64,000 nucleotides of DNA from Lama guanicoe (lineage: Eukaryota), in assembly GCA_013239625.1 (NCBI GenBank), contig MU053629.1:895567-959566 (forward strand). Reading direction: 5' to 3'. Both the position numbers and the translations under genes were made by a program. The notes under the pieces were generated by a model. The model had not been told where the DNA came from and made no database searches. It saw only the letters and a list, made by a program, of their open reading frames with translations. Each line of letters opens with the position of its first letter. The first letter of the stretch is position 1. Of the stretch, positions 8,420-49,986 are shown one piece after another.

Positions 8420-8861
8420 CTCTCTTTTTTTAATTGATGTATAGTTGCTATACAATATTACATATCACAGGTGTACAGTATAGTGATTCACAAGTTTTAA
8501 ACGTTGTACTTCATTTATAGTTATTATAAAATATTGGCTATATTCCCTGTATTGTGCAATATATCCTTGTAGTTTATTTTATACGTAATAGTTTATACCT
8601 CTGAATCTCCTACCCCTATATTGCCCCTCCCCTCTTCCCTCTCCACCCTGGTAACCACTAATGTGTTATCTATTATCCGTAAATCTGTTTCTTTTTTGTT
8701 ATATTCTCTAGTTTGTTGTATTTTCTAGATTCCACATATAAGTGATAACATACAGTATTTGTCTTTCTCTGTCTGACTTACTTCACTTTGCATAACACCC
8801 TCCAAGTCCATACATGTTGCAAATGGCAAAATGGCATTCTTTTTTATGGCTGAGTAGTATT

Positions 8862-9811: not shown

Positions 9812-9945
9812 AAAAAAATTTATTTTGGAGGGGGGAATTAAGTTTATTTATTTATTTTAACAGAGGTACTGGGGATTGAACCCAGGGCCTCGTGCATGCT
9901 GAGCACAGCATTCTACCACTGAGCTATATGCCACCCCTCCCCCAC
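9812..9945 (-). mobile_element. tRNA-Ala-derived SINE (camelid vic-1-like)
   Basis: gaggtactggggattgaacccagggcctcgtgcatgct...ctaccactgagctata is the reverse of the A/B-box tRNA-like head. Confidence 0.85.
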
Positions 9946-10099: not shown

Positions 10100-10460
10100 C
10101 TTTTTTTTAATTGAAGTATATATAGCTGATTTACAATGTTGTGTTAGTTTCTGGTGTACAGCATAGTGATTCAATTATACATATATATATTGTTTTTCAT
10201 TATAGGTTATTATAGGCTATTGACTATAGTTCCCTATACAGTAGGAACTTGTTTATCTACTAGTAATTTCTATCTGCTAAGCCCAAACTCCTAATTTATT
10301 CCTCCCCAACCCTTTCCCCTTTGGTAACCATAAGTTTGTTTTCTATGTCTGTGAGTCTGTTTCTGTTTTGTAAGTAAGTTCGTTTGCATCATTTTTTAAG
10401 ATTCCACATATGTGATATCATATGATATTTTTCTTTCTCTGTCTGACTTACTTCACTTTG
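10100..10460 (-). mobile_element. L1 3'UTR fragment
   Basis: poly-T then typical L1 3' end; TSD-like atcata(c/g)taattc on both sides. Confidence 0.85.
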
Positions 10461-10512
10461 TATCATAGTAATTCTTTATGTTGACGACAGATAGACATGA
10501 TTACATAGTTTT

Positions 10513-10601
10513 GTTTGTTTTTTAATGGAGGTACTGGGGATTGAACCCAGCACCTCGTGCATGCTAAGCACGTGCTCTACCACTGAGCTACGCCCACCCA
10601 C
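10513..10601 (-). mobile_element. tRNA-Ala-derived SINE (vic-1-like)
   Basis: Same family head; 11-bp TSD tacatagtttt at 10502-10512 and 10602-10612. Confidence 0.88.
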
Positions 10602-13344
10602 TACATAGTTTTATTTTTATAAAAACATTTTTAAAGATTTAATTACATTTTCAAAAGAATAGCAATTTTATCTAAGTAATATTGATTTTTCAGGTTGACA
10701 TAAATTTATGATAATTTATATTTTTTCTTTCAATTCCGTAGATTGTTTTGCATATTGATTTGCATGAATATTCAGTTACATGGAAAAACATTAGATGGGT
10801 TCACTCCCCACACCAGCCACACTCACTTATCGCCCCACAAGCCCTCCTGAGCTAGCAAACAGCGGCTTGGCGAGGTGTACAGCCCCGTAGTTGGCACCTG
10901 ACTCCACAGGAAGCATGTAAAAGGCTCCCTGACTGGGGCAGGAGGGGCTTCACATACAAGCTGTATCCGCTGCTGCCACGTATAGTGTTCAGTTGCTCAC
11001 TCTGCCTTGCTTTGCCCTTGGCTTTCTGTCTCCTGGTACCTAACTCTTCCCCTGGCTTCCTGAATACCTTGACTGATCGTTTTAGCGCTGTCCTCCTGAA
11101 CCAGGTCTTTGTCAACTTTACTTTGATGATCACAATCCCTGCTTCCTCCCCAGCAAGTATCCCCTCACATCCATTCACCTGGTATGACACAGTGCACTCA
11201 CACACATGTATGCTTTAAAACTGCTCTTTTCAAGAATACGCAGAAAATGGTCTCCTTCATCACTCATTTCATGTAAATCATTGTACCAACCAGTCCGATC
11301 CTGGCCTCACTATGTGCTCTTTCAGACTAACTCATAAATCATTAAACCTAGAAAGGAGATCAGCCAGTTTGCGGCACTCTTTTCACAACTGGGGCAACGG
11401 AGGCCCGAGGAGAGGAGATGACTTGCCTGTGGTCACACAACCAGAAAACTCAGACCAGAGCCAGCCCTCCAAGCTCCAAGCCCAGCAACCATTCTCTTGC
11501 TCCACACCACCTGGTTGGCTAATTGTGCATTCCAGCAGCGCCCCACCCCAGTACATGTCTCCCTGACGTCCTAAAGAACGGTTATCGTGAATTGCGGGCT
11601 GGAAATTTGACGCTGAGTGTGCAGAGGGAAAGCAAAAGGGGCTATTTCATAAATGACACAATGGCATTCTCCAAAATGGAGCTACAGGGTTTCTGACGCC
11701 CTGAGAGCCTGCATGCCTTTCTGGAGACTAAACATTTTCACAGTTCCTTTGGCCCAGGGGTTATTTTCTTGTTGAAAAAATGGAAAATCACCATTCCAGT
11801 TGCTAAGAAAAATAACTTCAGCTGGACTAATCTGGAGACAAAGGTTCTTCTGAAACCGAAGGAGGATAGAATAGTCAGGGGAAGTAAATATTTACTTTAT
11901 ATAAATGCTGAATGTTTCTTCTGGCTTTCTTTCTATTTGGTAGTACCTAAGAACTCCTAACTGGCTGGTTAGAGAGAGGCTGGGTCGCCCAGGTCATAGG
12001 AGGAGCTGAGTGGTCATGAGGCTGCAGGAGAAGCTGGCCACTGGGGTCCCCTGCCCGGCCACGGCTGTCGGGAGCTGCAGCCCACAGTCCCTGAGCTGAG
12101 GATGAGATGACTCTTCCGGGGGAGACCCACCCAGAAGAGCTCCTCCCTCGAGATAGAATCGTTAGCAATCTGACACCCTATTTATTACCTATCTTCAAAG
12201 TGTACTTCTTCCTAATGAACTACTGCTTTTGCCATTGACATTTCTCTTGTTAGAATTTGCTTCTTTTTGGTTTGGTTTGGTTTTCGGTTTTCAATATTTT
12301 TATTAAGATATAATTCACGTATCATAGAATTCACCATTTAAAGGTTCTCAGTGCAATGGTTTTTCTGCTTTATTGAGGCATAATTGACAAAATATATATA
12401 TAATGTACAATGTGATGGTTTCATATAAATATGCATTATGAAATGACCATCACAGCCAAGCTAATTAGCATTCATACAATTTGCTTCTTGGTATCAGAAT
12501 CATTTATGTTCATTTCATTGATTTCATAATCGATTCATTTTTAATCCAAATGTTCTCGGTTATTTAGCTAAAGAAGAATGAGTTTCTTTAAGGAAAAATC
12601 TTAAGTTAGTATCTTTAGTTAAAAGATTCCACAAATGAGGCAAACCTGAAAGGAAAAAACCTAACTGTTGGAAACACTGAAGATGTCAGCCACTTCAGGT
12701 AGCATGGGGGAGAGGTTTCTCCTGGGAGGTTAAGGAGGTCAGTGGGGCGTGACACCTGTTCTGAAAACCCACTGATGTTTTCACAGACGCTTGCAGCTGC
12801 ATCGTCATGCGTGTGAATGCTGTTCAACAGCACGGCACCATCTTCTGGAATGTGCTTCCGTTTGTTGAATGAAGTCACAGATAGACGGTTTTTACTTGCC
12901 AGGATGTTTGGAATTGCCCCCGAAGGGCCAGGGCAAAGAAGGAGCCTGCAGTGTCCCTAGCTTCACAGTAAATCTGCCCTGTAAACCATAAAAGTGAGGC
13001 ACAAACTCGCAAGGGTCACTTCACCTACACTTCAAGATACCCACCTCACAGCCAATGAGACGGACAAAGCGCAGTGCACTGGGGTTACGGTGCGATCATG
13101 CGACGGGACTAGACCAGGGGAGAAAGGGCGTCTATCAGATTCAGGCCGTGTGACTTTGGGCAATGCTTTACATATATCTGAAATACAACAGTGTTAGTAA
13201 GACTACATATTAATACTTCTATAAATAAGATTAATGATACTGGCCCGCTCTACCTCACAGAGGTGATAATCAAATTGTTTAAGAGCTGAAAAAGTACTTT
13301 ATAAACTACAAAGTACTTCCTGAAAATAATGTCATATTTGTGTT

Positions 13345-13477
13345 GGGGGGAGGTAATTAGTTCTATTTATGTGTTTATTATTAGCTTGTTTGTTTTTTAA
13401 TGGCGCTACTAGGGATTGAACCCATGACCTCATGCATGCTAAGCACACACTCTACACTAAGCTATCCCTCCCTCCTC
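13345..13477 (-). mobile_element. tRNA-Ala-derived SINE (vic-1-like)
   Basis: ggggggaggtaattag...agggattgaaccc...catgcatgctaagcac...gctatccctccc. Confidence 0.82.
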
Positions 13478-13621: not shown

Positions 13622-14380
13622 ATGGTGGTCAGTCTCCCACGATGGCCCGCAGTGATCCTCAGCTCCTCTTACGTGTGCTCTTATGTTGCCCCTACCACAC
13701 TGAACCTGGTCTGTGTGACCAATAGAATTTGGTAGAAGTGACAGTCTGTGGCTTCCAAGGTTAGGTCATAAAAGAGATTGCTGCTTCATCCTTGGTCTCT
13801 TGGATTACTCACTCTGGAGGAAGGTAGCCACCATGTTGTGGGGACACTCACAAAGCCATGTAGAAGCCATATACAGAATGTGGCGTTCTCCCAGCACCAT
13901 ATTGCCTACATTCCTTTGGGAGTAAATTCTTCTGCACCAGATGAGCCTTCAGATAACTGCAGCCCAGCCAACATCTTGACTACAACCTCATGAGAAGCCC
14001 CAAACCACAGTTGCCCAGCGAAACCACTTCTTAATACCTGACCCATAGACGATGTGAGGGATAATAAATATAGCCACCATGTTGTGGGGACACTCACAAA
14101 GCCATGTAGAAGCCATGTGGCACTCTCCCAGCACCCAGCACCATATTGCCTGCATTCCTTTGGGAGTAAATTCTTCTGCACCAGGTGAGCCTTCAGATAA
14201 CTGCAGCCCAGCCAACACCTTGACTACAACCTCATGAGAAGCCCCAAACCACAGTTGCCCAGTGAAACCACTTCTTAATACCTGACCCATAGACGATGTG
14301 AGGGATAATAAATATTTGTTCTTGTTTTAAGCCACTACATTTTGAGGTAATTTGTTACACAGCAATAGATAACTTATACA
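13622..14380 (+). mobile_element. MaLR LTR (MLT1 family) containing an internal tandem duplication
   Basis: 5' gatggcccgcagtgatcct and 3' ttttaagccactacattttgaggtaatttgttacacagcaatagataac. Confidence 0.8.
13825..14314 (+). repeat. Direct tandem duplication, 2 x ~245 bp
   Basis: Copy 1 13825-14070 and copy 2 14071-14314 both run tagccaccatgttgtgggg...gagggataataaata. Confidence 0.97.
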
Positions 14381-17099: not shown

Positions 17100-17582
17100 T
17101 GAAGCTGTTCCTTATCGTCCCTCCATCCCCACCCCATCTCCCGAGGCCAGATGTGCAGGACCCGACACCAGGATGGCTGTGCGCCCTCTCGGTGAATCTT
17201 GAGGGAGAATTACTTCTCGCCTGCAGCAGACGCTCTGTTTTCAATAACTTGATTGTTAATTGGTGATCACCTTTCCACATTCTTGGCTCTAAAATAGCCT
17301 ACACTTTTACAGCAGAAGGTCCACGGGATAGAACTCACAAAACAGGGGCTCAGCACAGCCTGGTGTACGTGGATCGAAGGAGTGTGTGAAGCCTGCCTTA
17401 GCTTCTTTCAGCCCTGTGAGATCTGGCGCAGTACAATTTCAGGAACAGAGATAAGACTTTTAAAAAAACTAGGCTCAGGGACTGGCTCATGCCAGGGACA
17501 GATATACCTTCCTGAGCATTTGTCTATTTCGTGTGTTGAAACTGTTGCGGGTTTGTCTGCCACCGTCAGAGATGGAAACAAA

Positions 17583-17712
17583 GGGGGAGGGAATTGCTCA
17601 GTGGTAGAGCGCATGCTTAGCATGCATAAGGTCCTGGGTTCAATCCCCAGCACCTCCATTAAAATACATAAATAAATAAACCTAATTACCTCCCCTCAAC
17701 AAGATTAAAAAA
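17583..17712 (+). mobile_element. tRNA-Ala-derived SINE (vic-1-like)
   Basis: gggggaggg..gctcagtggtagagcgcatgcttagcatgcataaggtcctgggttcaatccccagcacctcca plus A-rich tail with cctaattacctcccc. Confidence 0.9.
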
Positions 17713-20871: not shown

Positions 20872-21131
20872 TTCAGGGAGGGATAAATCAGGGGGTGGAG
20901 ATTAATAGACACACATTACTATATATAAAACAGATAAACAACAAGGACCTACTGTATAGCACAGAGAACTATATTCAATTTCTTGTAATAACATATAATG
21001 GAAAAGAATCTGAAAAGGAAAATGTATATATATATGTGTGTGTGTATATATATATTACTGAATTGCTTTGCTGTATGCCTGAAACTAACATTGTAAATCA
21101 ACTACACTTTAATCAAAATTTTTTTTAAAAA
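20872..21131 (+). mobile_element. L1 3'UTR fragment
   Basis: ...aacaaggacctactgtatagcacagagaactatattcaa...; TSD agaagtgtgta on both sides. Confidence 0.85.
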
Positions 21132-22694
21132 AGAAGTGTGTACCCTTGACTTCTCTATGTGAAATATAAGACAAGAAATGTTCACTTTTGTTCATCAATA
21201 GTTTGTACTGAAGACACATCTGGTAGCAAGACAAGTGAGCTTGTTTATTTCGAGGGGTAAATGGGAGTAATTAATTTGCTGGTCATTTTCCCACGTGTGA
21301 ATGTTGGAGAGGAAGTGGCAGACATGGTGGTTCTGTCATCACACTTCATCCTCCTAAAAATTTTATGAGGTGGGTATTCTCGTCTGTAGTTTGCAGAAGG
21401 AAAAACCTTCCCCTGGAGGCTAGGAGAGATTAAAGGGCCTTCATCCCTATTCAGACTCCAGCCTGGGTAACTCTAAAGCCCAAATGGGCATTTTCACCCC
21501 TAAAAAGTCAGTCTGTCTCCTCATGTTGGTTTCTGAAATGGCTCTGGAGTTGCACAGAAGGGCTCATACGTGGCCTGGCCTTGCCCTGGACCGGGTGTGC
21601 TCGGTGACATTGTTGTTACTTCCCGGGGCTTCTGTTTCTCTTTGGCAATCCCAGGGCTCTCAGGTCCACCAGCTCAGCACGTTCCAAGAACCAATGACAT
21701 TGAACCCCCAATGCATTCCCTGTAACGGAGGAACCCAGAAACCCAGAGAGCAAGCACCAGCACTTGTGCCTGGGAGGAATGTGGCTGATGACTGAGAAGT
21801 CACAAGCTGTGCCAGCTTCCCTGGAGGAAAGAAGGACATGAGTCCCGGCTTCCCCACTGACCACACAGCTGGGGGAAGCACATCATACTCAGACGGCAAG
21901 GCTGATGGAGAGTGAGCGGAGGTGAACACAGGCCAGAGTGACCTTTGTTTCTTCTCTTCTCATAGTTGGGAAGACACTGGCTGCCGGCTTTCCTATTGCT
22001 GTTAATGACGTGCAACCACAAATTGCAACAGCACTTCTTTAATGCACATGTGCAACGTTTGTTCACTCAGTAAACATGTGTCATGGGTCTCCTCTCATTG
22101 AGCACCTGGAGGGGCGATGCAGTCTGGTGTTAAGAAGGTGAACTCTGGTGCCTGTCTGAACTGGGTTCAAGTCCTGCCCTGTGCAGCCTAGTCTGGGGAG
22201 AGTCTGCTGCTCTCATGGCTTGTTATTGCCCAGTGGACGTCCGAAGCTGGGTGCTGGGGGAGAGAGGGGTGGTCCACAAGGAGTGTTCCTGCCACGAGGG
22301 GCGTGAAGGCAAGCACATGAATAGCCTGTGGCTGTGAAATAGGAAACATGCAGAATTTGACGAGGAACCGAACAGGTGATTCAGAGTGAGCAGCACTGCC
22401 TCTTTCAAACCTGTCCTTTTGCGAGGGCTCGTATTTACGTGGAAAGCATTGTTGCTGATGGTTAAAGGAGTTTGGGAACATGTATCGACTTTTTATTACC
22501 ATTGTAAAAGTAAAACGTGTTCATTTTTGAAACTTTGAAAAGTACAGAAAGTATTTCAGATATTTCTCTTCATTCCATCAACTAAGAAACCATAGTCGAA
22601 ATTTGGCTGTATGTTCTTTTACTTGTATTTTTTCCAAAAATATTTGGAGTGCCACATTTGGAGCCTCTGTTTCCTTAGACTCTGTAACACATTC

Positions 22695-23120
22695 TTTTTT
22701 TTTTTAATTGAAGTATAGTTGATTTACAGTGTTGTGTTAGTTTCAGGTGTACAGCATAGTGATTCAGCTATACTTTTTTTTTCAGATTCTCTTCCATTAT
22801 AGGTTATTACAAGACATTGAATAACCCTCCTGTAGGAGGGCCTTGTCATTTATCTATTTTATATATAGTAGTTTGTATCTGCTAATCTGGAACTTCTAAT
22901 TTATCCCTCCCCCCAAGCCCTTACCCCTTTGGTAACCACAGTTTGTTTTCTATGTCCGTGAGTCTATTTCTTGTTTGTAAATAAGTTCATTTGTATCATT
23001 TTTTTCAGATTCCACATATAAGTGATAGCATGATATTTGTCTTCGCCTTCATTTAACATAATAATCTCTAGGTCCATCCATGTGGCTGCAAATGGCATTA
23101 TTTCATTCTTTTTTTCATGG
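22695..23120 (-). mobile_element. L1 3' end fragment
   Basis: ORF2 tail KKNEIMPFAATWMDLEII on the minus strand; poly-T; degenerate TSD tgta(a/g)caca(t/g)tctttt. Confidence 0.88.
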
Positions 23121-25098
23121 TGTAGCACAGTCTTTTGACTTTGTCTCATGAGGCAAATCCTTATCCTTTGAGGGTAGGTTGGCATTTTGGAACAGCCTTA
23201 AGGTGCCCGGAGCCAGGTATGGCAAATTTGGTAAGTGACTGAGCTGGAGGCGTGTTGCTTTTGGTCCAAACACAAGATGGTAAGGTAATGAAACTAATTT
23301 TATTAGGTGGCTTGTAAAATAGCACTAATGACAGTTCTAGTGGGCAGCCTGAAATATGAATTTGCCACAAGCAGCAACTTAGAAAGTCAGGAATTCTGAG
23401 TTGATTGTTTTTAAATTTCTGGTGTCCAGTGTTTTGCCTGGCAAATAACAGGTACTTAAAAACAGTTGGGTGCCCTGAAGGAGATGGACCACTTTATTTT
23501 TTAATTGATTTTTAATTGCTGTGTGGCTTTGGTTTGTGTACACACCAAATTATAAGACATGCAATGAGAAGATTTTTCAAATTTTCTATGATACATCCGT
23601 GAATGTATTTTAAAATAACAGTAAAGAAAAATAAGAAACCGTTAACACTTTATATAATTTGTAAAAATATTCTACTTACACAAATTAAACCTTAAAGATA
23701 CGGCTACACTCCTCTTTGACCACCATATCCAATCCTAGACCCCTCTCCCCCCAGAGGAAGTAAATTCAGTTACATGATCAATGTGCAAATTTCCAAATTG
23801 TTTTGTTTGTGTGTGTACACATCTATATTATGTATATCATACATGTCATTTTTAACTAAACTGTATCATGGGATGTGTGATTCACTGCTTGCAAGTTTCA
23901 CTCAACTAAATGAAAACTGACCACCTTAAAGGGGACAAAACTCATTTGGATATTTAAGTTCTGGTTCACTTCCTTTTGAAATAAGTTCTTCCCTTTATAA
24001 CCAGGTCTTCCATGGCATTGGGGAGAATTTAGAGTAGCCAGAGATATCAGCAGAGGCACCTAAGAACACCCACCTCTAGAAGGCTGGCCCTAGGATTTTT
24101 CAGCCCATTATTGTATGTCTGACAGTGGCACCAGGGAATGCGGTGGGCAGTATGGGCTGAGGTCACACTCCAGGATTGGAGACATCCTAAGACACACTCA
24201 TTGTCCTTCATGGCCCACAATGAAACTGTCCTCCACAAACGTAGCAGGTGTCTTGAGAACGTATTTCTATTCTCAGCTTGCCTCATCTTTAGGGAGTAAT
24301 GAGGTCAGTGAGTTGTACCCTCTATGAGAAGGATGTTTGCACCCCCCCCACATCATCATCTGGCCTAGAACATTAGCTGGATTTTGTCCCCCATCATCAC
24401 ATAGTTGATATTTTGATCTTCCTATATCATAAAAGGATTTTGCTTCAGGGAAGTACGTGAGACATTCTCTGGTTGCTTCCATCTGGCATGAACAGGAGAG
24501 GGAAAGACTGCAGTTGGGAGCCATGAGTAAACTCATCAGAACTAAAGTGGTTGGCATCGAGGTACACAGATCCGGTGGTTTTCTCCAACTTCTTCCCAGG
24601 CCAGACGTCACACACCTCAGCCAGGACCCGTAGCAGCCCCACAATCTGGGGAGGAACAAGAAAAGGCACAGAGCTGGTAATGCGATGTCTCCCGCAAGAA
24701 AAGCCTCCCTCAGATGGTATTTCAGGGCATTAGCTCAGGCGGCCTTGTCCTCAGTCATCTCGCTGGCATTTAAGTAGCCCTTGGGTTACAGATCATGGCA
24801 GGTGCGGGGAAGTAAAGAAGGCCGTGCTAAAAATACCCAGCCTCTTCTGGAACTCGGCCGGCAGCCTGAGCTCCCTCCTCCAGCGCCAAGACCTCAGAAA
24901 AAGAACAGAGAGTTTCCTTCACCTCCAGCACTAAGAAAGGTCTGGCTCCCTCCTCCACTGAACTAGCTGAGGTGGAAATGGTCCTCTGGAGAGAACAAAC
25001 TCAAAGAAGCATTTCTACTGAGCAAAAGCAATTTCGACTAAATGAAGAAAGCAGGCTCGCTTAAGGAGAAGCCAGGGTCCCAACAGAAAGTACCCGGA

Positions 25099-25196
25099 GG
25101 GGGAGGAAATGCTAGCTCAGTGGCAGTGCGTGGTTAGCAGGCATGAGGTCCTGGGTTCGAGCCCCAGTGCCTCCACTAAAAAAAAGAAAAAAAAAT
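25099..25196 (+). mobile_element. tRNA-Ala-derived SINE (vic-1-like, short)
   Basis: tagctcagtggcagtgcg...ggtcctgggttcgagccccagtgcctcca plus poly-A. Confidence 0.82.
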
Positions 25197-27483: not shown

Positions 27484-27960
27484 TTTTTTTATTTTTTAAT
27501 TGTTTTATGGAAGTATAGTTGGTTTACTACGTTGTGTTAGTTTCTAGTGTATAGCATAGTGACTCAGTTATACGTATATATATTCTTTTTCATTATAAGT
27601 TATTATAAGAAATTGAATATAGTTCCCTGTGCTATACAGTAGGACCTTGTTGTTTATCTATTCTGTATATAGTAGTGTGCATCTGCTAATCCCAAACTCC
27701 TAATTCATCCCTCCCTACCCTTTCCCCTTTGGTAATCATGAGTTTGTTTTCTATGTCTGTGAGTCTGTTTCTGTTTTATAAATAAGTTTATCTGTGTGAT
27801 TTTTTTTAAATCCCACATATAAAATCTCATATAATATTTGTCTTTGATTTACTTCACTTAGTATGATAATCTCTAGGTCCATCCATGTGGCTGCAAATGG
27901 CATTATTTCATTCTTTTTTATGGCTAAGTAGTATTCCATTGCATATATGGACTCCATATT
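27484..27960 (-). mobile_element. L1 3' end fragment
   Basis: ORF 27751..27957(-) MEYYLAIKKNEIMPFAATWMDLEIIILSEV is the L1 ORF2 C-terminus. Confidence 0.9.
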
Positions 27961-32911: not shown

Positions 32912-33037
32912 CTGGAGGAGGACATAGCGGCGAATGAGAAGCTGCTGCGGGCGTCGGAGGACGAGCGGGACCGGGTGCTGGAGGAGCTGCACAAGGCCGA
33001 GGACAGCCTCCTGGCCGCCGATGAGACCGCCGCCAAG
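32912..33037 (+). CDS. TPM1: TPM1 exon 2a (smooth-muscle, mutually exclusive with 2b)
   Basis: cccccag|CTG...AAG|gtaccc; 126 nt; LEEDIAANEKLLRASEDERDRVLEELHKAEDSLLAADETAAK. Confidence 0.97.
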
Positions 33038-33247: not shown

Positions 33248-33373
33248 CTGGAAGACGAGCTGGTGTCGCTGCAAAAGAAACTCAAGGCCACCGAAGACGA
33301 ACTGGACAAATACTCCGAGGCTCTTAAAGATGCCCAGGAGAAGCTGGAGCTGGCAGAGAAAAAGGCCACCGAC
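33248..33373 (+). CDS. TPM1: TPM1 exon 2b (default exon)
   Basis: ctcccag|CTG...GAC|gtaagt; 126 nt; [42 protein letters not shown]. Confidence 0.99.
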
Positions 33374-36557: not shown

Positions 36558-37032
36558 TTTTTATTTAATCTTAACTATTTTTTAACTTATGTATTTATTT
36601 TACAATATCATATTTTTTAAATAAAAGTATAGTTGATGTTCAACATTATATGTTACAGGTATACAGTATAGTGATTCACAATTTTTAAAAGCTATACTCC
36701 ATTTATAGTTATAAAATATTGGCTATATTCCCCATGTTATACAATACTTCTTTGTAGCTTATTTTATAACTGATAGTTTTTACCTCTTAATCCTCCACTT
36801 CCATCTTGCCCCTTCCCCCACTTCCCTCTCCCCACTGGTAACCACTAGTTCCTTGTCTACATTTGTGAGTCTGTTTCTTTTCTGTTATATTCACTAGTTC
36901 ATTGTATTTTTTTAGATTCCACATGTAAGTGATATCTTACAGTATTTGTCTTTCTCTGTCTGACTTATTTCACTTAGCATAATACAGCATGGATGGACTT
37001 GGAGGGCATTATGCTAAGTGAAGTAAGTCAGA
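36558..37032 (-). mobile_element. L1 3' fragment with 5' inversion
   Basis: Reverse L1 3'UTR to ~36985, then an opposite-orientation L1 piece ~36986-37032; TSD-like cagaa(a/g)ggactctt on both sides. Confidence 0.88.
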
Positions 37033-37509: not shown

Positions 37510-38067
37510 CCTCTCTCGCTCGGCGCTTCCCTCTTCCTGAGCATGGGAATCCGAGAGTCCGGAGCGGAGCCCTCCAGCCGCCAGTAGGCGGCACCATCGC
37601 CCTTAGCAGCCAAGTCCGTTACCCCAGGGTCCCCAAGGCGCCGGGAAGGGGCGCTTGGAGTCGAAGTAAAACTCCTGGCATGGCAGCCGCCCTCCGGCCC
37701 GCCAGGTGCCCCCGCAGCGCGCGCACCTCGCCCGTCAGCCCCACGGCCGTGAGCATGCGCAGTGCCTCCCGCGCTGGGCGAATTCCCGGGGTCCGCGGCC
37801 CGCGCCCCGCCCCGCCCGCTGGGCCCGCCCACGGCGCTCGCGCACTCGCCTGCGGTTCGCCTGCGCCGCCCGGGAGGCCGCGACTTCCGGGCTGTGCCTC
37901 GGCAGCAGGGGGCGCCGCCGTCTCGCACCGCGGCCTGGGCGGGGCGGCCGGGCGGTCCGAGTGCGGCAGTGGCAGCGGCAACGGCAGCGGCGGCAGGAGC
38001 GCAGCAGCCGGCCTCTCCTCCCGCAGCCCGCCTACCTGCCGGCCCGCCGCCGCCGCCGCCCGGTGCG
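37510..38067 (+). promoter_or_regulatory. TPM1: Internal exon-1b promoter, CpG island
   Basis: Very CpG/GC-rich; GC boxes; ETS ACTTCCGG 37883-37890; CTCF-like motifs 37581-37594 and 37901-37916; no obvious TATA. Confidence 0.85.
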
Positions 38068-38199
38068 ATGGCGGGGAGCAGCTCGCTGGAGGCGGTGCGG
38101 AGGAAGATCCGGAGCCTGCAGGAGCAGGCGGACACCGCGGAGGAGCGCGCGGGCAGCCTGCAGCGCGAGCTGGACTACGAGAGGAAGCTGAGGGAGACC
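38068..38199 (+). CDS. TPM1: TPM1 exon 1b (short/low-MW isoforms); non-canonical donor in this sequence
   Basis: MAGSSSLEAVRRKIRSLQEQADTAEERAGSLQRELDYERKLRET, 132 nt, inside a CpG island; followed by ttaagg rather than gtaagg. Confidence 0.95.
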
Positions 38200-41100
38200 T
38201 TAAGGGACCCACCCATCACCCACCCCCGGGGGCGCCTCCCCCGCCGTCCGCCCCACTGCGGCCGGCGGAGCCCACCTCCCCCGCCACCCCTCCCCCCGCC
38301 TCGGGCCGCACCTGGCGCACCTGGGCCAGCAGGCGTCGGGCTCTGGGGAGGGGCCCTGCCTGTTCTCCGCAGCCCTTCCTTTTCATCTCGCTGGTCTAAA
38401 GTCAAAGAACCGAGGTGGGAAGCCGGAGTGATGCTGAGAAGCTTCTGGAAGCAGCACTTTCTTTCCCAGAAGGGGCTGTAGGTGGAGGCGGGGTGGGGGG
38501 AGGTTGCGTTCGGCCCCGTGTCTCGGGTCCCCTGGGACGTGCACTTTGCGCCGCTGGCATTATTTACTAGGAGGGTGGGGACGGAAGAGGTCCCTCCTCT
38601 TGGAAATCCGTTCGTTTGGGAAGGGCGCTCCCAGGTCAAGTCTGAGGCATTGCCGGACTTTGGGGCCTGGGGATGCTAAACTCCCCCATCCCTGTTCACC
38701 CTTGATTTCATGAAAGCCTGTTTCTCTGGGGTGGTTGAGACAGTGACAGCGCGTGTTCTGGCTTAATATGCGGACCTTTGCCCTTCCCTTTCTTAACCTT
38801 CCCTCCTCCCAAGTTCTCTTCCACAGATAGATATTCCTTTGTTACCGAGTCTTGAAAAAAGTTGGCCAAATGGCTACGATCATTGAGTGTTTTCTCTTGC
38901 CAGCTTCCCCTCCCCCACGTTGAGTGTGATACCTGCCTTCCTTTCTCCTAAAGCAAAGTATCCCGCAAACAGGAACAGGATTTCAGGGGTGGTTTAAGCG
39001 TTTGCTGTTTGTTGATTTTGAGTGTGTGTTTTCAATTAAGATTCTCAAACACCTTAGGGAATTTTATGACAAGCGATAATACGGGGCCCTGCCGTGCTTA
39101 ATAGCAGCCTATTCTGAGTAAATCATAATGGTTAAGTGTATGCAACGGCATTATGGTTGGCCACAGAAACTATGAGACCTATTTTGCGTAAAATACAAAG
39201 AAGTAAACAGGACCTCTTAAGAGGAACACCTCACTAGGTGAAGTTTCAGACGAAATAGACAGGAACCAGGAAATCGATAGGCAAAAGATCGATTTCTGCA
39301 GAGGACAGGACAGCAAAGGTCCCATGGATGTCTCTGAATCTGGCCGGGCGATGAATGAATTCCAGCTCCCTCTCCGCCTGGCTCGCAGCTGTCCTTGAAC
39401 CATTAGAACCAATAGAACGTGATGGATAGGAGCAAGAACTCTGGACCCAGGCTGCCAGGATTTGAATCCTTTAACTACTCAGTCCCTCAGTTCCCTGACT
39501 GTACAGTGTGGGGTAGTGACAGTACCTGCCTGTTGTGAAGGTGAAAAGAAGCACGTGTAGAGAAGTTGCAGTGCAGCTTAGCACACTAGACTAAGTGCTC
39601 TGTGTCAGTAGGTGTTAAAACTGTAGCACCCTCCTCATCCCTCATTCCTCCTTTGCTTACAATTCACCAGCTGTCGAAGGGTCTTAAAAATGGCCTGCTC
39701 ATTGCACTCTAACCTAAAACTCTCCATTCAAATGCTTCTGATTAATCTTTTTTTTTTTTTCTTTTTGCACCTTGAATGGAGAGAGGATGCCGGCTGGGTG
39801 GAAGGAATGTTTGGTGAGGTCGAAGTGGTATTAGTGGTGAAAGTCTGTGGAACTCTCCTCCCCCTGCTCAGAAAGGGAGTATGTGGTCCTGTACAGGAGA
39901 GCCTTCTATCGACTCCTGGCCTGGTGATCGATGTTGGACACAGAAGATAAATTTTATGAAGAGCACGTTGTTACTACTACGCTCACCTTCTCTTTTGGGC
40001 TTAGTTTTTATAACCACACTCTTCCTGGGTCTGTTGGCTAAAGATGGTGTTTTCATTCTTTCCAAAGCTTTATATTAAAAGTGGTTTAAATAGGTTCAAT
40101 TTTTTTTTAAGTATGTTTCGAAAATAGTCTATCCGAGTGATTGGACGGTTACGAAACTTTTTATGACAGCAGTTTGAGGACTGGGTCAGACCACTGAAGA
40201 GCGAATGTCCAATTGAGAGCTGTTCCTAACTTCTGGAAGATGTTAGGAACTTAAAGGTGGCTGATTTAAGGTGGTTTCTTGGTAGCTGTTAGACAAAGCT
40301 GTGAGTTAAACTAGCAGTCACAGTTTTTCTTGGTAGCAAAGATGAAAGTTTAGAGACAGTCACAAGCCCCTGCAAAAAATACGTGGTGAGTTGGCCCTGA
40401 ATTCAGTTTCTCAAAGGTTCAGTCAGGCTGTAGTTAATTGGCCCTATTACACCAGCGCTTACCTTGGAAAAAGCAGCCATCCCTTTTTTTCCCTCTCGGT
40501 TTGTTTTTCCAAGGTGTGTGGGCCCTTCAAAATGTTGGAGTGAGGCTACTTTGCTTGATGTAATGGTTGGCTCCAGGTCTTATGACCCAGTAGGGTTTTG
40601 TTTGTCTCTTGTCCTTATCAAAGGGAAAAAGGGAGCAAGAAAAAGCCAGTTCTCGTTCCTCCTTTCTGGACGGTACCCGGCAAACGAGGGGACTTAAAGC
40701 TGCAGCCTGTAGGTTCTTAATTGGCAACTTTATTAAATCATGGAAAATAACCAATTTATAAAAATTCCCAGCCCTTTCCTCTTTAAGTTAGTAACTATTT
40801 CCAAGACCAGGAATCTAAGAGTGCATTTTGTGCTCACATGGGGTGGCAGTAATGAGAGTGTCTCCTCTGGCTTTCTGCTTTCACGCACAGGCAAGGCGAA
40901 GGCACTGCCCCGTTCACATCCCTCTCGCTCATTATACAAATATGCCTCGTGGATTACAGGCTTCAGTGCAGATTGAGGAGATGGTTTTTATCTCTTATCC
41001 ATGGGAGTGTCCCTTAATGTCATCCGTGTTTTCCCCCCTTTCCTTACCATATAAGGGCAGAAGTTTAACTTGGCTGTAGTGACTTGGTCTTACACAGTAA

Positions 41101-41913: not shown

Positions 41914-42109
41914 TTTTTTTTTTTCTTTTTAACATTTTTTTATTGAGTTATAGTCATTTTACAATGTTGTGTCAAATTCCAGTGTAGAGCACAATTTTTC
42001 AGTTATACATGAACATACATATATTCATTGTCACTTTTTTTTTCGTTGTGAGCTGCCTCAAGATCTTGTATTTATTTCCCTGTGCTATATGGTATAATCT
42101 TGTTTATCT
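41914..42109 (-). mobile_element. Short L1-type 3' end insertion
   Basis: poly-T plus L1-like tail; perfect 10-bp TSD aggttaagtc at 41904-41913 and 42110-42119. Confidence 0.82.
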
Positions 42110-45100
42110 AGGTTAAGTCAAGTAGACTGCCCATGTGCTGTATTAAAGAGAACCTTAGAAAATACCTAAATAAACCTCAGAACTCAGGGAATATATACCA
42201 GAAATAAAAGCTGGCGAAGGTGAGCGATGGGAGCCTTTTGAATACAGAGCATAATCCCCCCCAAAAAAACAAAACTATAAAGTGCCCTTAATCAACTTAT
42301 CGAATTAAGTGTATCTTGAATTTTAGGGAACCAAACCAAATTGCAATCACACCAGCCAGGTCAGGTCTGAGAAGCCAGATTTTTCCTAGAGGAAGCTTAC
42401 GTGGAGATAGATGGACCCCAGACACTGCTCTCAAACCGGGGCTGTAACCTACAAGCACCTCTGCCCGTCTGGTCTGAAACCTCTGGGGCAGCAGGACTTG
42501 GCTTCTGGCTCTCGCTGAAGACCTTTCTTGTGGGCTGGGTGGGGAGTTGCTGTAGAGAACCTGCCACTCTGACATCAGAAGGCAGAAGGACCCTGTAGGT
42601 GAGAACCACCAATCCCAGCGCTTCCGCGAGGTGCCAGGAGGCCTGGAGAAGCGAGGCGAGCCAGCACAGGAGGAGCAGGGGGCTTGAGTGTTACTCTCCT
42701 CTCCCGCTGATGGCTGTGTGACCTGAGCACGCTTCAGCCCCTGGGGTCAAAGTTCCCTCCCTTTTTCTGTTTTGTCTTTAACCTAGAGCTAGATGAGTGG
42801 TTCCCACAGGATTTGCCAGCTCCTCTGGATGGTGGGTGGGGTAGAGAGGTGGGACCGGTTGCTTCTTTGTAGTGCGGATTCCTGCCCTTCTCTCTGGCCT
42901 CTTGAGTCACCATCTCTAGGGATCTGGCCTGGAAATTTGTATTTTTAATATGCAGCTCCTAGTGAATTCTGACACCCAGCCCGTTGTGGGAACTGCTGGA
43001 CGAGGCCTTCCAGCTAAACCACTGTGACCCCGTTTTGCAGACCACCCACAGGTCTGCTCTCTGTGTTGCCTCAGCCTGGCTCCTGGAGCAGGTTCCCACT
43101 CCCAGTCGTCGTTGGGGTGCCCTGTATGAGGCCTAGGACACAACCTCCTGTACAGTCTGCAAAATGCCCCAGGAGGGACAGAGTTAGTGACGTTTATAAA
43201 AGTGTCTGAGCTAAAGGAAAGAACAGTAAGAGGGGAGATGCATATTGATGGGGGGGGCCTCTCTCGGGGGAAGATCATTTGTGCAGAGGAGGACGGAGCA
43301 CCGGGAGCTGTCTCCTTACTCCGACGCCCTAGCTGTGTGGGAGGCTGGGGACCTTGCCTGGCCTGTCACCTGGAAGTTTCTTTCCCCAGAGCATAAATGG
43401 TCTCCTTTCTATGAGTACAAAGTCCTCCAGGTTGGGGCCCAGCGAGAAAACAGCAGGGAACTTAGAGTGTTGGGGTTGCTGTGAAAATCGTTCTAAAAAT
43501 CCTGTTGACGTTTCTCCAGCCGCAACACCTGCGAGAGAGATATTTAAGAAAGTCGGGTGGCGGGAAATACTCTTGAGTACCTGACCTAGACGTTCTGAGT
43601 TTTTTGTTGGTGGCGGTGTTTTGGAGAGTGGTTTTTGTTTTACTCTTCCTTTTAGTTTCAGCTTTCAGAGTGGCTTGTTCTCCCCCTGTTCATAAAAGAA
43701 AGAGAATTTTACTGGAAATGGAAAATACAGAAAAGAAATCTGACCTGACCCCAAAAGTATACCCTTAATGTATACCTCCTTCCAGTTTTTTTTAAAATGG
43801 GGCTAAAATCTTTTAAATAAGATATGTGTTACCCCTATTACCTTCAGCCCTCCTCCAGAAAAACCCAACATTCATCTGCCAGTCAGGCCTGGTGGGGCCC
43901 TGACTGGCTGTGCACCTGTAATGATTTACTCTGTGAGCCAGTACAATTGTAAACTGACCTTGGCTTCATTTCACATTTCCTCCTGCTCCCTGCCTCTATC
44001 AACCCATTGTTACTACATAGTTAATTTTTGACAAGAGAAAAGTGTATTTGAATGTTTTTGTAGAGAGCCCTTCACCGTGGTTGGAGATGCCCTAATCACC
44101 TCTTTCCCAGACAGAACTTGGCTTTTAGAATTTCACAAATCTAGATGAGCAAAGAGCAGAATGTTCTCATGTTCCTTTAGTTCAAGGCCATAATCACAGC
44201 CTCTAATTACACGTGCATGTGCAACTGTACATCATGCGTCCAGGAGCTAAGAAAGTTGCTTTTGTTTAAATTAGGTTGGTTTTACTCATTGTATTCGGTA
44301 GACATTTACTGAGCCCATACTCTGTGCAGAGAATCGTAATTCCTTGCACATAAGATGCTGAGTAAGGAAAACAGGAATGTAGATGGAGCTAGCATAGGTC
44401 CCTAAGTGCATGTTGTGATTTTTAGGAAACTCTCAAGTGTCCTGAAAACCCCATCACCCCAGCGCACATTCAGAGTGGACAAGGAAAGGAGACCGGATTA
44501 GCAGACTCCATCTTTCACTTCCATGCATTATGTTTAAACAGCCACCAATGCAAGTGTATATAATGGACCATCCAGTCATACAAGTATTCCGAGGTGCATA
44601 GTAACAAATGGTAACTGTTGCATCCCCAAGAAAAAAAATCTTACTTCAGAGACAGATACCAAGTAGAAAGAGTATCTACAGTGCTTTTCTCCTAAGGAGC
44701 TTGAAACTCTTCTTGTAGCAACCTTGACCTGTGAGAAATTCCAGTAGACTTAGGTTAAAAAACACTTGAGAAATTTGTGTTGGCCCTGTTCCAGCATGAC
44801 CAGTTATTCTAAAGGGGTTGCTGAAGGGGAGGGGGCCTGCTGGGTTTTGTTGTGTCTGTATGGTGTATATTTTAGAACCACTGAATTGAAAGATATTTTA
44901 GTTCCTTTATAAAGCCCCTTTGAGAAAGTGGCCGGGAGAAAGGAGAACTGAGACTCCTGAGACCGGGTCTCACTGTCACTGAGCGCTCTTGTCTGGTGTG
45001 GCTGAGCCTGGCTAGGTCAGTTTCATCACCTCCATCCACACCTCAGGCCCACCAAGTGCAGTGGCTGTAGTGAAACTCTCCTTTAACAGGCAGGTAAAGC

Positions 45101-45343: not shown

Positions 45344-45535
<192 letters not shown>

Positions 45536-49302: not shown

Positions 49303-49378
49303 CCAAGTTCGACAGCTGGAAGAACAGTTAAGAATAATGGATCAGACCTTGAAAGCACTAATGGCAGCAGAGGATAAG
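49303..49378 (+). CDS. TPM1: TPM1 exon 6a (non-muscle, alternative)
   Basis: actaacag|C...AAG|gtactg; 76 nt; QVRQLEEQLRIMDQTLKALMAAEDK. Confidence 0.98.

Positions 49379-49728: not shown

Positions 49729-49986
<258 letters not shown>

What the first reader, a model, noticed from the sequence alone, without database searches (positions are those of the whole stretch)
38197..38206. Exon 1b 5' splice site reads TT instead of the invariant GT
Seen: GAG ACC|ttaaggg at 38200. Every other TPM1 donor here is GT, and +2 to +5 (taag) match consensus, so this is a +1G>T change. Exon 1b starts all short TPM1 isoforms. If real and unspliced, the frame runs on to TAG at 38479-38481, giving a 137-aa product with a Pro-rich tail. 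Nearby GT alternatives are GCG|gtgcgg at 38095 (in frame, loses 35 aa) and GAG|gtggga at 38415 (frameshift). Knowledge: +1G>T donors usually abolish splicing, with rare residual use. Either this lineage or individual has impaired short isoforms, or this is a consensus error in a very GC-rich island; the latter is quite plausible.
Basis: partly seen in the sequence, partly recalled or inferred. Interest (0 to 1): 0.72.

Follow-up and report, generated by a model that had tools for sequence, protein, structure and literature searches.

The report
Probable misread base at tropomyosin splice
One base that would break the splice signal used by all short forms of the tropomyosin gene TPM1 is in this assembly, but a very close relative has the normal base and the best-matching public samples seem to lack it too, so it is most likely a sequencing error or one animal's rare mutation.

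Summary
The TT at 38200-38201, the TPM1 exon 1b donor, is in the window, and the other ten donors checked are GT. It is probably not a lineage feature. Of 84 anchored homologues, 73 read Val (G at +1) straight after the exon and none reads Leu. One of them, P0003, matches 134 of the window's 137 read-through residues, intronic tail included. No listed public run holds the whole stretch: the best seven DNA runs (five studies) hold 73 of 76 sampled words, the loss one substitution predicts, though its place is not located. The site lacks both features of working TT donors (G at -1, GT at +5/+6). Two more inferred G>T/C>A changes at conserved positions lie in this gene's GC-rich islands, a weak hint of consensus error. 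No reads were examined, so error (about 0.58) versus a real private null allele (about 0.37) stays open; a shared or working TT donor is about 0.03. If real, short isoforms from this allele would mostly be lost.

The parts
38200..38201 (+). +1/+2 of the intron after TPM1 exon 1b; reads TT where relatives have GT
   Evidence: Val at this codon in 73 of 84 anchored homologues and in P0003
38197..38207 (+). donor region -3..+8; matches 4 of 11 positions of the recalled U1-complementary consensus (+2 to +5 only), C at -1, GG at +5/+6
38068..38199 (+). coding part of exon 1b, 44 codons; first exon of the short TPM1 isoforms
   Evidence: homologues spliced to exon 3 (P0001, P0002, P0033, P0045); PMC11240984 passages
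38068..38481 (+). read-through frame if the intron is kept: 137 aa, stop at 38479-38481; not a gene
   Evidence: 134/137 identical to P0003; exact sequence not in the protein collection
38095..38096 (+). upstream cryptic GT inside exon 1b; in frame, would drop 35 codons (five heptads)
   Evidence: use not shown
38415..38416 (+). best downstream cryptic GT (6 of 11 consensus matches); frameshift, stop after 4 codons of exon 3
   Evidence: use not shown
45401..45534 (+). exon 3, the normal partner of the exon 1b donor; AG acceptor intact
32933..32935 (+). exon 2a codon 8 reads Asn (AAT) where homologues have Lys; inferred G>T at 32935
   Evidence: 16 of 16 hits read Lys; none is known to be from this animal's lineage
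37831..37831 (+). A upstream of exon 1b where read-through homologues imply C; inferred C>A
   Evidence: 10 of 10 alignable read-through products, P0003 included, read Pro where the window reads Thr

Best explanation
The T at 38200 is a single-base consensus error of this assembly in a GC-rich first-exon island. The animal's TPM1 exon 1b donor is the ordinary ACC|GTAAGG and splices to exon 3, giving the usual short isoforms. Shown: T in the window; G in relatives; the site could hardly work as TT. Inferred: the closest animals have G (from an unlocated loss of 3 sampled words); the T arose in sequencing or polishing and not in the germ line.
For: (a) 73 of 84 anchored homologues read Val after the exon and 0 read Leu; 2 of the 86 hits could not be anchored, and the other 11 are 7 spliced to exon 3 and 4 gene models joined to other sequence. 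(b) P0003, from an independent assembled run, is 134/137 identical to the window's read-through and has Val. (c) None of the 24 listed runs holds all 76 sampled words of 37900-38700. Seven DNA runs from five studies and three organism labels stop at exactly 73, and seven more at 71. One substitution should cost 3.06 words and goes unseen only 4% of the time. (d) The TT site pairs at +2..+5 only, against 6-7 of 11 for the eight other donors correctly scored, and lacks the -1 G and +5/+6 GT of working TT donors (PMC6280755 section 6). (e) Two further departures from conserved positions in the two GC-rich islands are of the same G:C>T:A class, while exons 3, 4, 5, 7 and 8 match the zebra-labelled protein P0033 at every residue. 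(f) The site lies in a CpG island (GC 0.73, CpG o/e 0.77). False splice-junction disruption and poor cover of GC-rich first exons are documented assembly faults (PMC9516821 passages).
Against: No reads were examined, so nothing here separates an error from a true private allele. The 3 missing words are not located and could be another difference. P0003 is not the same haplotype: it also differs by 2 indels and 5 other residues. The two other G:C>T:A changes are inferred from protein, and either could be a real lineage change (no close relative was seen for exon 2a). None of the three is in the full CCG context of the oxidation artefact. All three are in partial context, as are 40-46% of G/C bases there anyway. 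That artefact occurs at low allele fraction and would enter a consensus only at very low depth. Heterozygous Tpm1 null mice are viable, so selection does not forbid a real heterozygous allele.
Confidence: 0.58

Rival explanations
1. The T is a real rare or private allele of the assembled animal, most likely heterozygous. U1 cannot pair stably, and exon 1b, being a first exon, cannot be skipped. Transcripts from this allele keep the intron (stop at 38479, then decay, or end early in the intron) or use a cryptic GT (38095: in frame, 35 aa shorter; 38415: frameshift). Short isoforms (Tpm1.8, 1.9, 1.12 type) come only from the other allele; long isoforms from exon 1a are untouched.
For: It explains the same data as the error reading: T absent from relatives and apparently from the best public runs. 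Heterozygous Tpm1 knockout and gene-trap mice are viable without gross defects (PMC3843815 and PMC11411305 passages). Splice consequences follow.
Against: The +1 G is kept from fish to mammals among the hits, so such alleles are selected against. Three same-class private-looking changes in the two GC-rich islands fit a technical cause a little better than germ-line mutation, where this class is a minority (recalled, not computed).
Confidence: 0.37
2. The T is common or fixed in this animal's species, and either the TT donor works (like human ETV1, FBXO9, LMOD1) or the species has largely lost short TPM1 isoforms.
For: Working TT-AG introns exist (PMC4176328 passages and supplement rows; PMC6280755). 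+2..+5 read TAAG. The word loss is not located. P0003 is a relative and not the same haplotype.
Against: It needs the best runs to carry T and to differ from the window at some other single site. No -1 G, no +5/+6 GT, 4 of 11 consensus matches. TPM1 does not occur in the searched supplements of the human non-canonical survey (one file not searched). It cannot explain a trait shared with the relative behind P0003, such as oval camelid red cells, because that relative has G.
Confidence: 0.03

Closest known systems
False 'splicing junction disruption' in genome assemblies (Kim et al. 2022, PMC9516821; passages read)
   Same: A canonical donor looks broken by one base in a GC-rich first-exon region of one assembly, while relatives are intact.
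   Different: That class is defined by mapping reads to the site, which was not done here.
FANCC c.165+1G>T, a pathogenic TT donor with residual splicing (Hartmann et al. 2010, known to me only as cited in PMC6280755)
   Same: +1G>T change that leaves TTAAG.
   Different: FANCC reads atG|TTAAGTAg, with G at -1 and GT at +5/+6; this site reads ACC|TTAAGGGA and has neither. It also follows a first exon, which cannot be skipped.
Natural human TT-AG introns: ETV1, FBXO9 (PMC6280755 section 6) and LMOD1 (PMC4176328 supplement row)
   Same: TT at +1/+2 followed by AAG.
   Different: ETV1 and FBXO9 have AG at -2/-1 and GT at +5/+6 (the LMOD1 flanks were not seen in a paper), and all three have transcript support. 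Here the TT is seen in one assembly only, with G in the homologues.

Membership tests
Functional U2-type TT-AG donor (ETV1/FBXO9/FANCC type) | TT at +1/+2 followed by AAG | tested here: met
Functional U2-type TT-AG donor (ETV1/FBXO9/FANCC type) | G at -1 (exonic pairing with U1, extra GT at -1/+1) | tested here: not met
   C at -1 and no match at -3..-1; pattern from PMC6280755
Functional U2-type TT-AG donor (ETV1/FBXO9/FANCC type) | second GT at +5/+6, needed for accurate TT splicing in reporters | tested here: not met
   GG at +5/+6; PMC6280755 section 6
Functional U2-type TT-AG donor (ETV1/FBXO9/FANCC type) | TT shared by orthologues or other individuals | tested here: not met
   0 of 84 anchored homologues read Leu; P0003 reads Val; no run holds all words (not located)
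Functional U2-type TT-AG donor (ETV1/FBXO9/FANCC type) | junction reads from a T-bearing allele | not tested
   no reads were examined
Assembly consensus error (false splice-junction disruption) | reads of the assembled individual disagree with the consensus base | not tested
   no reads were examined; the source sample is unknown
Assembly consensus error (false splice-junction disruption) | base absent from other individuals and close relatives | tested here: inconclusive
   met for P0003; only inferred for the 14 best DNA runs
Assembly consensus error (false splice-junction disruption) | lies in GC-rich, error-prone sequence | tested here: met
   GC 0.73, CpG o/e 0.77 over 501 bases; necessary context, not proof
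8-oxoguanine library artefact (Costello et al. 2013, PMC3616734) | G>T/C>A in CCG context | tested here: not met
   class fits; 0 of 3 sites in full context, 3 of 3 partial against a 40-46% background (contexts read by hand)
8-oxoguanine library artefact (Costello et al. 2013, PMC3616734) | low allele fraction and read-orientation bias | not tested
   needs raw reads
TPM1 exon 1b (short-isoform first exon) | 44-codon first exon between exon 2b and exon 3, spliced in phase 0 to exon 3 | tested here: met
   homologues named tropomyosin alpha-1 chain

The most novel reading that the evidence does not exclude
The T is real and shared across this animal's species or population, though not with the relative behind P0003. 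These animals would then either splice a TT donor that lacks the known supports (-1 G, +5/+6 GT) or live with little or no short TPM1, including the red-cell isoform Tpm1.9. That would be a natural isoform-class knockout in a group with unusual red cells. A milder version, a real heterozygous null in this one animal, has about 0.37 and would deserve about 0.3.
Probability: 0.03. Interest if true: 0.7.

Novelty: not a real feature. Interest (0 to 1): 0.12.

Why it matters
As an error it matters only for annotation: gene models built on this assembly may lose or distort the short TPM1 isoforms, and single-base oddities in its GC-rich islands need read checks. As a real private allele it would be a natural null for the exon 1b isoforms alone. 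Tpm1.9 is one of the two red-cell tropomyosins (PMC5597325 abstract; PMC11240984 passages). The knockouts in the passages I read remove the whole gene or the striated isoform, so carriers or homozygotes could show what the short isoforms do. A shared, working TT donor without the known supports would test current rules of U1 recognition, but the evidence is against it.

Tried and rejected
No whole genome is held for this window, so paralogue and assembly-wide error checks were not possible. Exact look-up of the 137-aa read-through found nothing, and P0003's cluster has 1 unnamed member. Cluster look-up of 7 homologues listed 15 members, none with a camelid name, so no annotated short isoform from this lineage was seen. 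The exon 2a search gave 16 hits, none recognisably from this lineage, so whether Asn is private is open. The RNA runs hold 34-35 (four runs), 25 and 9 of 76 words, against about 27 expected for the part up to 38199. The 137-aa Pro-rich product was rejected as a protein of interest, since relatives with G give similar tails. A link to oval camelid red cells was rejected: the close relative has G, and PMC9926112, which ascribes the shape to a 4.1R splice form (start of abstract in listing), names tropomyosin only in one reference (term search). The oxidation-artefact signature is not met in full context. A 13-base guess for exon 6a found nothing; the exon was placed from its translation. One comparison (P0043) was misaligned and is not used. 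Not in print, as far as searched: TPM1, camelid, alpaca, splice; 133 papers with at least 3 terms, 15 listed, none of the 15 containing TPM1; TPM1, exon 1b, knockout, low molecular weight; 7 papers, 6 listed, no exon-1b-only knockout evident from titles and abstract starts; no TPM1 in 3 supplementary files, 1 not searched. Most subscription papers are not covered. Scan notes near this place and by words returned nothing.

Full report
Observation. The window reads ACC|ttaaggga at 38197-38207, with T at 38200 and 38201. Upstream is a 44-codon exon from ATG 38068. It is TPM1 exon 1b: homologues carry the same peptide joined to AEADVASL, which is exon 3 at 45401. The window holds the gene in order: 1a (to 32148), 2a 32912-33037, 2b 33248-33373, 1b, 3, 4, 5, 6a 49303-49378, 6b 49824-49899, 7, 8, 9a from 52226 and a last coding exon from 58059 (exon names follow recalled nomenclature). 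All ten other donors checked are GT.

What relatives have. A search with the exon 1b peptide returned 86 proteins from 137 candidates. Most are machine-called read-throughs of genomic contigs, so the residue after the exon reports the first intron codon. Of the 86, 84 could be anchored. 73 read Val (72 read-throughs and one gene model), 7 are spliced to exon 3, 4 are gene models joined to other sequence, and none reads Leu. Val means G at +1. The hits run from mammals to birds, reptiles and fish by their sequences and the few names given. P0003 is the key case. It alone shares all 44 exon residues, it is 134/137 identical to the window's read-through including the non-coding tail and the same stop, and it reads Val. 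It is a close relative and not the same haplotype: it differs upstream by two indels and three residues and in the intron by two more.

What the closest animals have. For 37900-38700 (76 sampled words), 24 runs were listed and 20 hold at least a part. The best seven DNA runs, from five studies and three organism labels, all hold 0.96, which is 73 words. Seven more hold 0.93 (71 words), and none holds all. One substitution should remove 3.06 sampled words and would be invisible with probability 0.04. A common ceiling of 73 is what one difference private to the assembly would give, and 38200 is the one site in this stretch where the window is known to depart from its close relative and from the outgroups alike. 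Direct read evidence is the gap in this report.

Could the TT work? Against the recalled 11-base U1-complementary consensus the site matches at +2..+5 only, 4 of 11. The eight other donors correctly scored match at 6 or 7. Even with G it would match 5 and be the weakest of these. In PMC6280755 (passages; section 6 in full) TT ranks just below GC among non-canonical donors. But all eight tested variants had G at -1, accurate use depended on a second GT at +5/+6, and the natural sites of FBXO9 and ETV1 have both. This site has neither. PMC4176328 (passages; three supplementary files searched, one not) lists ETV1 and LMOD1 as TT-AG and does not mention TPM1. It is therefore not a member of the working TT donors, and is unlikely to work like one.

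Error or allele? Two more positions depart from conservation in the same direction. Exon 2a codon 8 reads AAT (Asn) where 16 of 16 hits read Lys. Base 37831 gives Thr where 10 of 10 alignable read-throughs, P0003 included, give Pro. Both imply G:C>T:A, both lie in GC-rich islands, and exons 3, 4, 5, 7 and 8 show no amino-acid difference from P0033. Of the other four substitutions against P0003, one (37879) is derived in P0003 and three could not be polarised. An unchecked scan note reports a Cys>Phe single-base oddity in MUC2 of this genome, which is the same class if the codon change is the simple one (e1-7858874). PMC9516821 (passages) documents false splice-junction disruption and poor cover of GC-rich first exons in assemblies. 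Against this: the bases at the two extra sites are inferred from protein and may be true lineage changes. The oxidation artefact of PMC3616734 (passages) prefers CCG context and low allele fraction, and none of the three sites is in full context. Heterozygous Tpm1 null mice are viable (PMC3843815 and PMC11411305 passages). I put error at 0.58, a private real allele at 0.37, a shared allele at 0.03 and anything else at 0.02. These are judgements, not computed values.

Mechanism if real. Shown: sequence and frames. Inferred from established splicing rules: U1 pairing fails, and a first exon cannot be skipped. Transcripts keep the 7.2-kb intron and stop at 38479 ahead of later junctions (nonsense-mediated decay), end early in the intron, or use cryptic GTs. 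The GT at 38095 gives an in-frame loss of 35 residues, five heptads of the coiled coil. The one at 38415 gives a stop four codons into exon 3. Four weak in-frame GTs before the stop score 3-4 of 11. The result is loss of short isoforms from that allele and no change to long ones. Exon 1b starts Tpm1.8, 1.9 and 1.12 (PMC11240984 passages), and Tpm1.9 is a red-cell tropomyosin (PMC5597325 outline and abstract). A tie to oval camelid red cells fails because the close relative has G.

Verdict. It is most likely an artefact, possibly one animal's rare null allele, and very unlikely to be new splicing biology. Interest 0.12.

Noticed in passing
window 32933-32935 (+), TPM1 exon 2a codon 8: Asn where 16 of 16 homologue hits have Lys; inferred G>T in a GC-rich island; private, lineage-wide or error is unknown.
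   Followed up: partly
window 37831: A where 10 of 10 read-through homologues imply C, upstream of exon 1b.
   Followed up: partly
window 33287-33289 (+), TPM1 exon 2b codon 14: Ala where the two best solved-structure matches and P0087 have Gly. I recall Ala in pig and cattle; not tested.
   Followed up: no
window 8425-8798, 10103-10467, 22691-23114, 27491-27919, 36613-36985, fragments 20875-21118 and 41918-42110: A dispersed repeat family of about 400 bases, 68-82% alike between the longer copies, probably a lineage-specific short interspersed element.
   Followed up: no
window 13825-14315: Tandem duplication of a 244-base unit, two copies, 93% matches.
   Followed up: no
window 9830-9937, 10510-10602, 13341-13472, 17582-17701, 25098-25193: A second, shorter dispersed repeat of about 80-130 bases in both orientations.
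   Followed up: no
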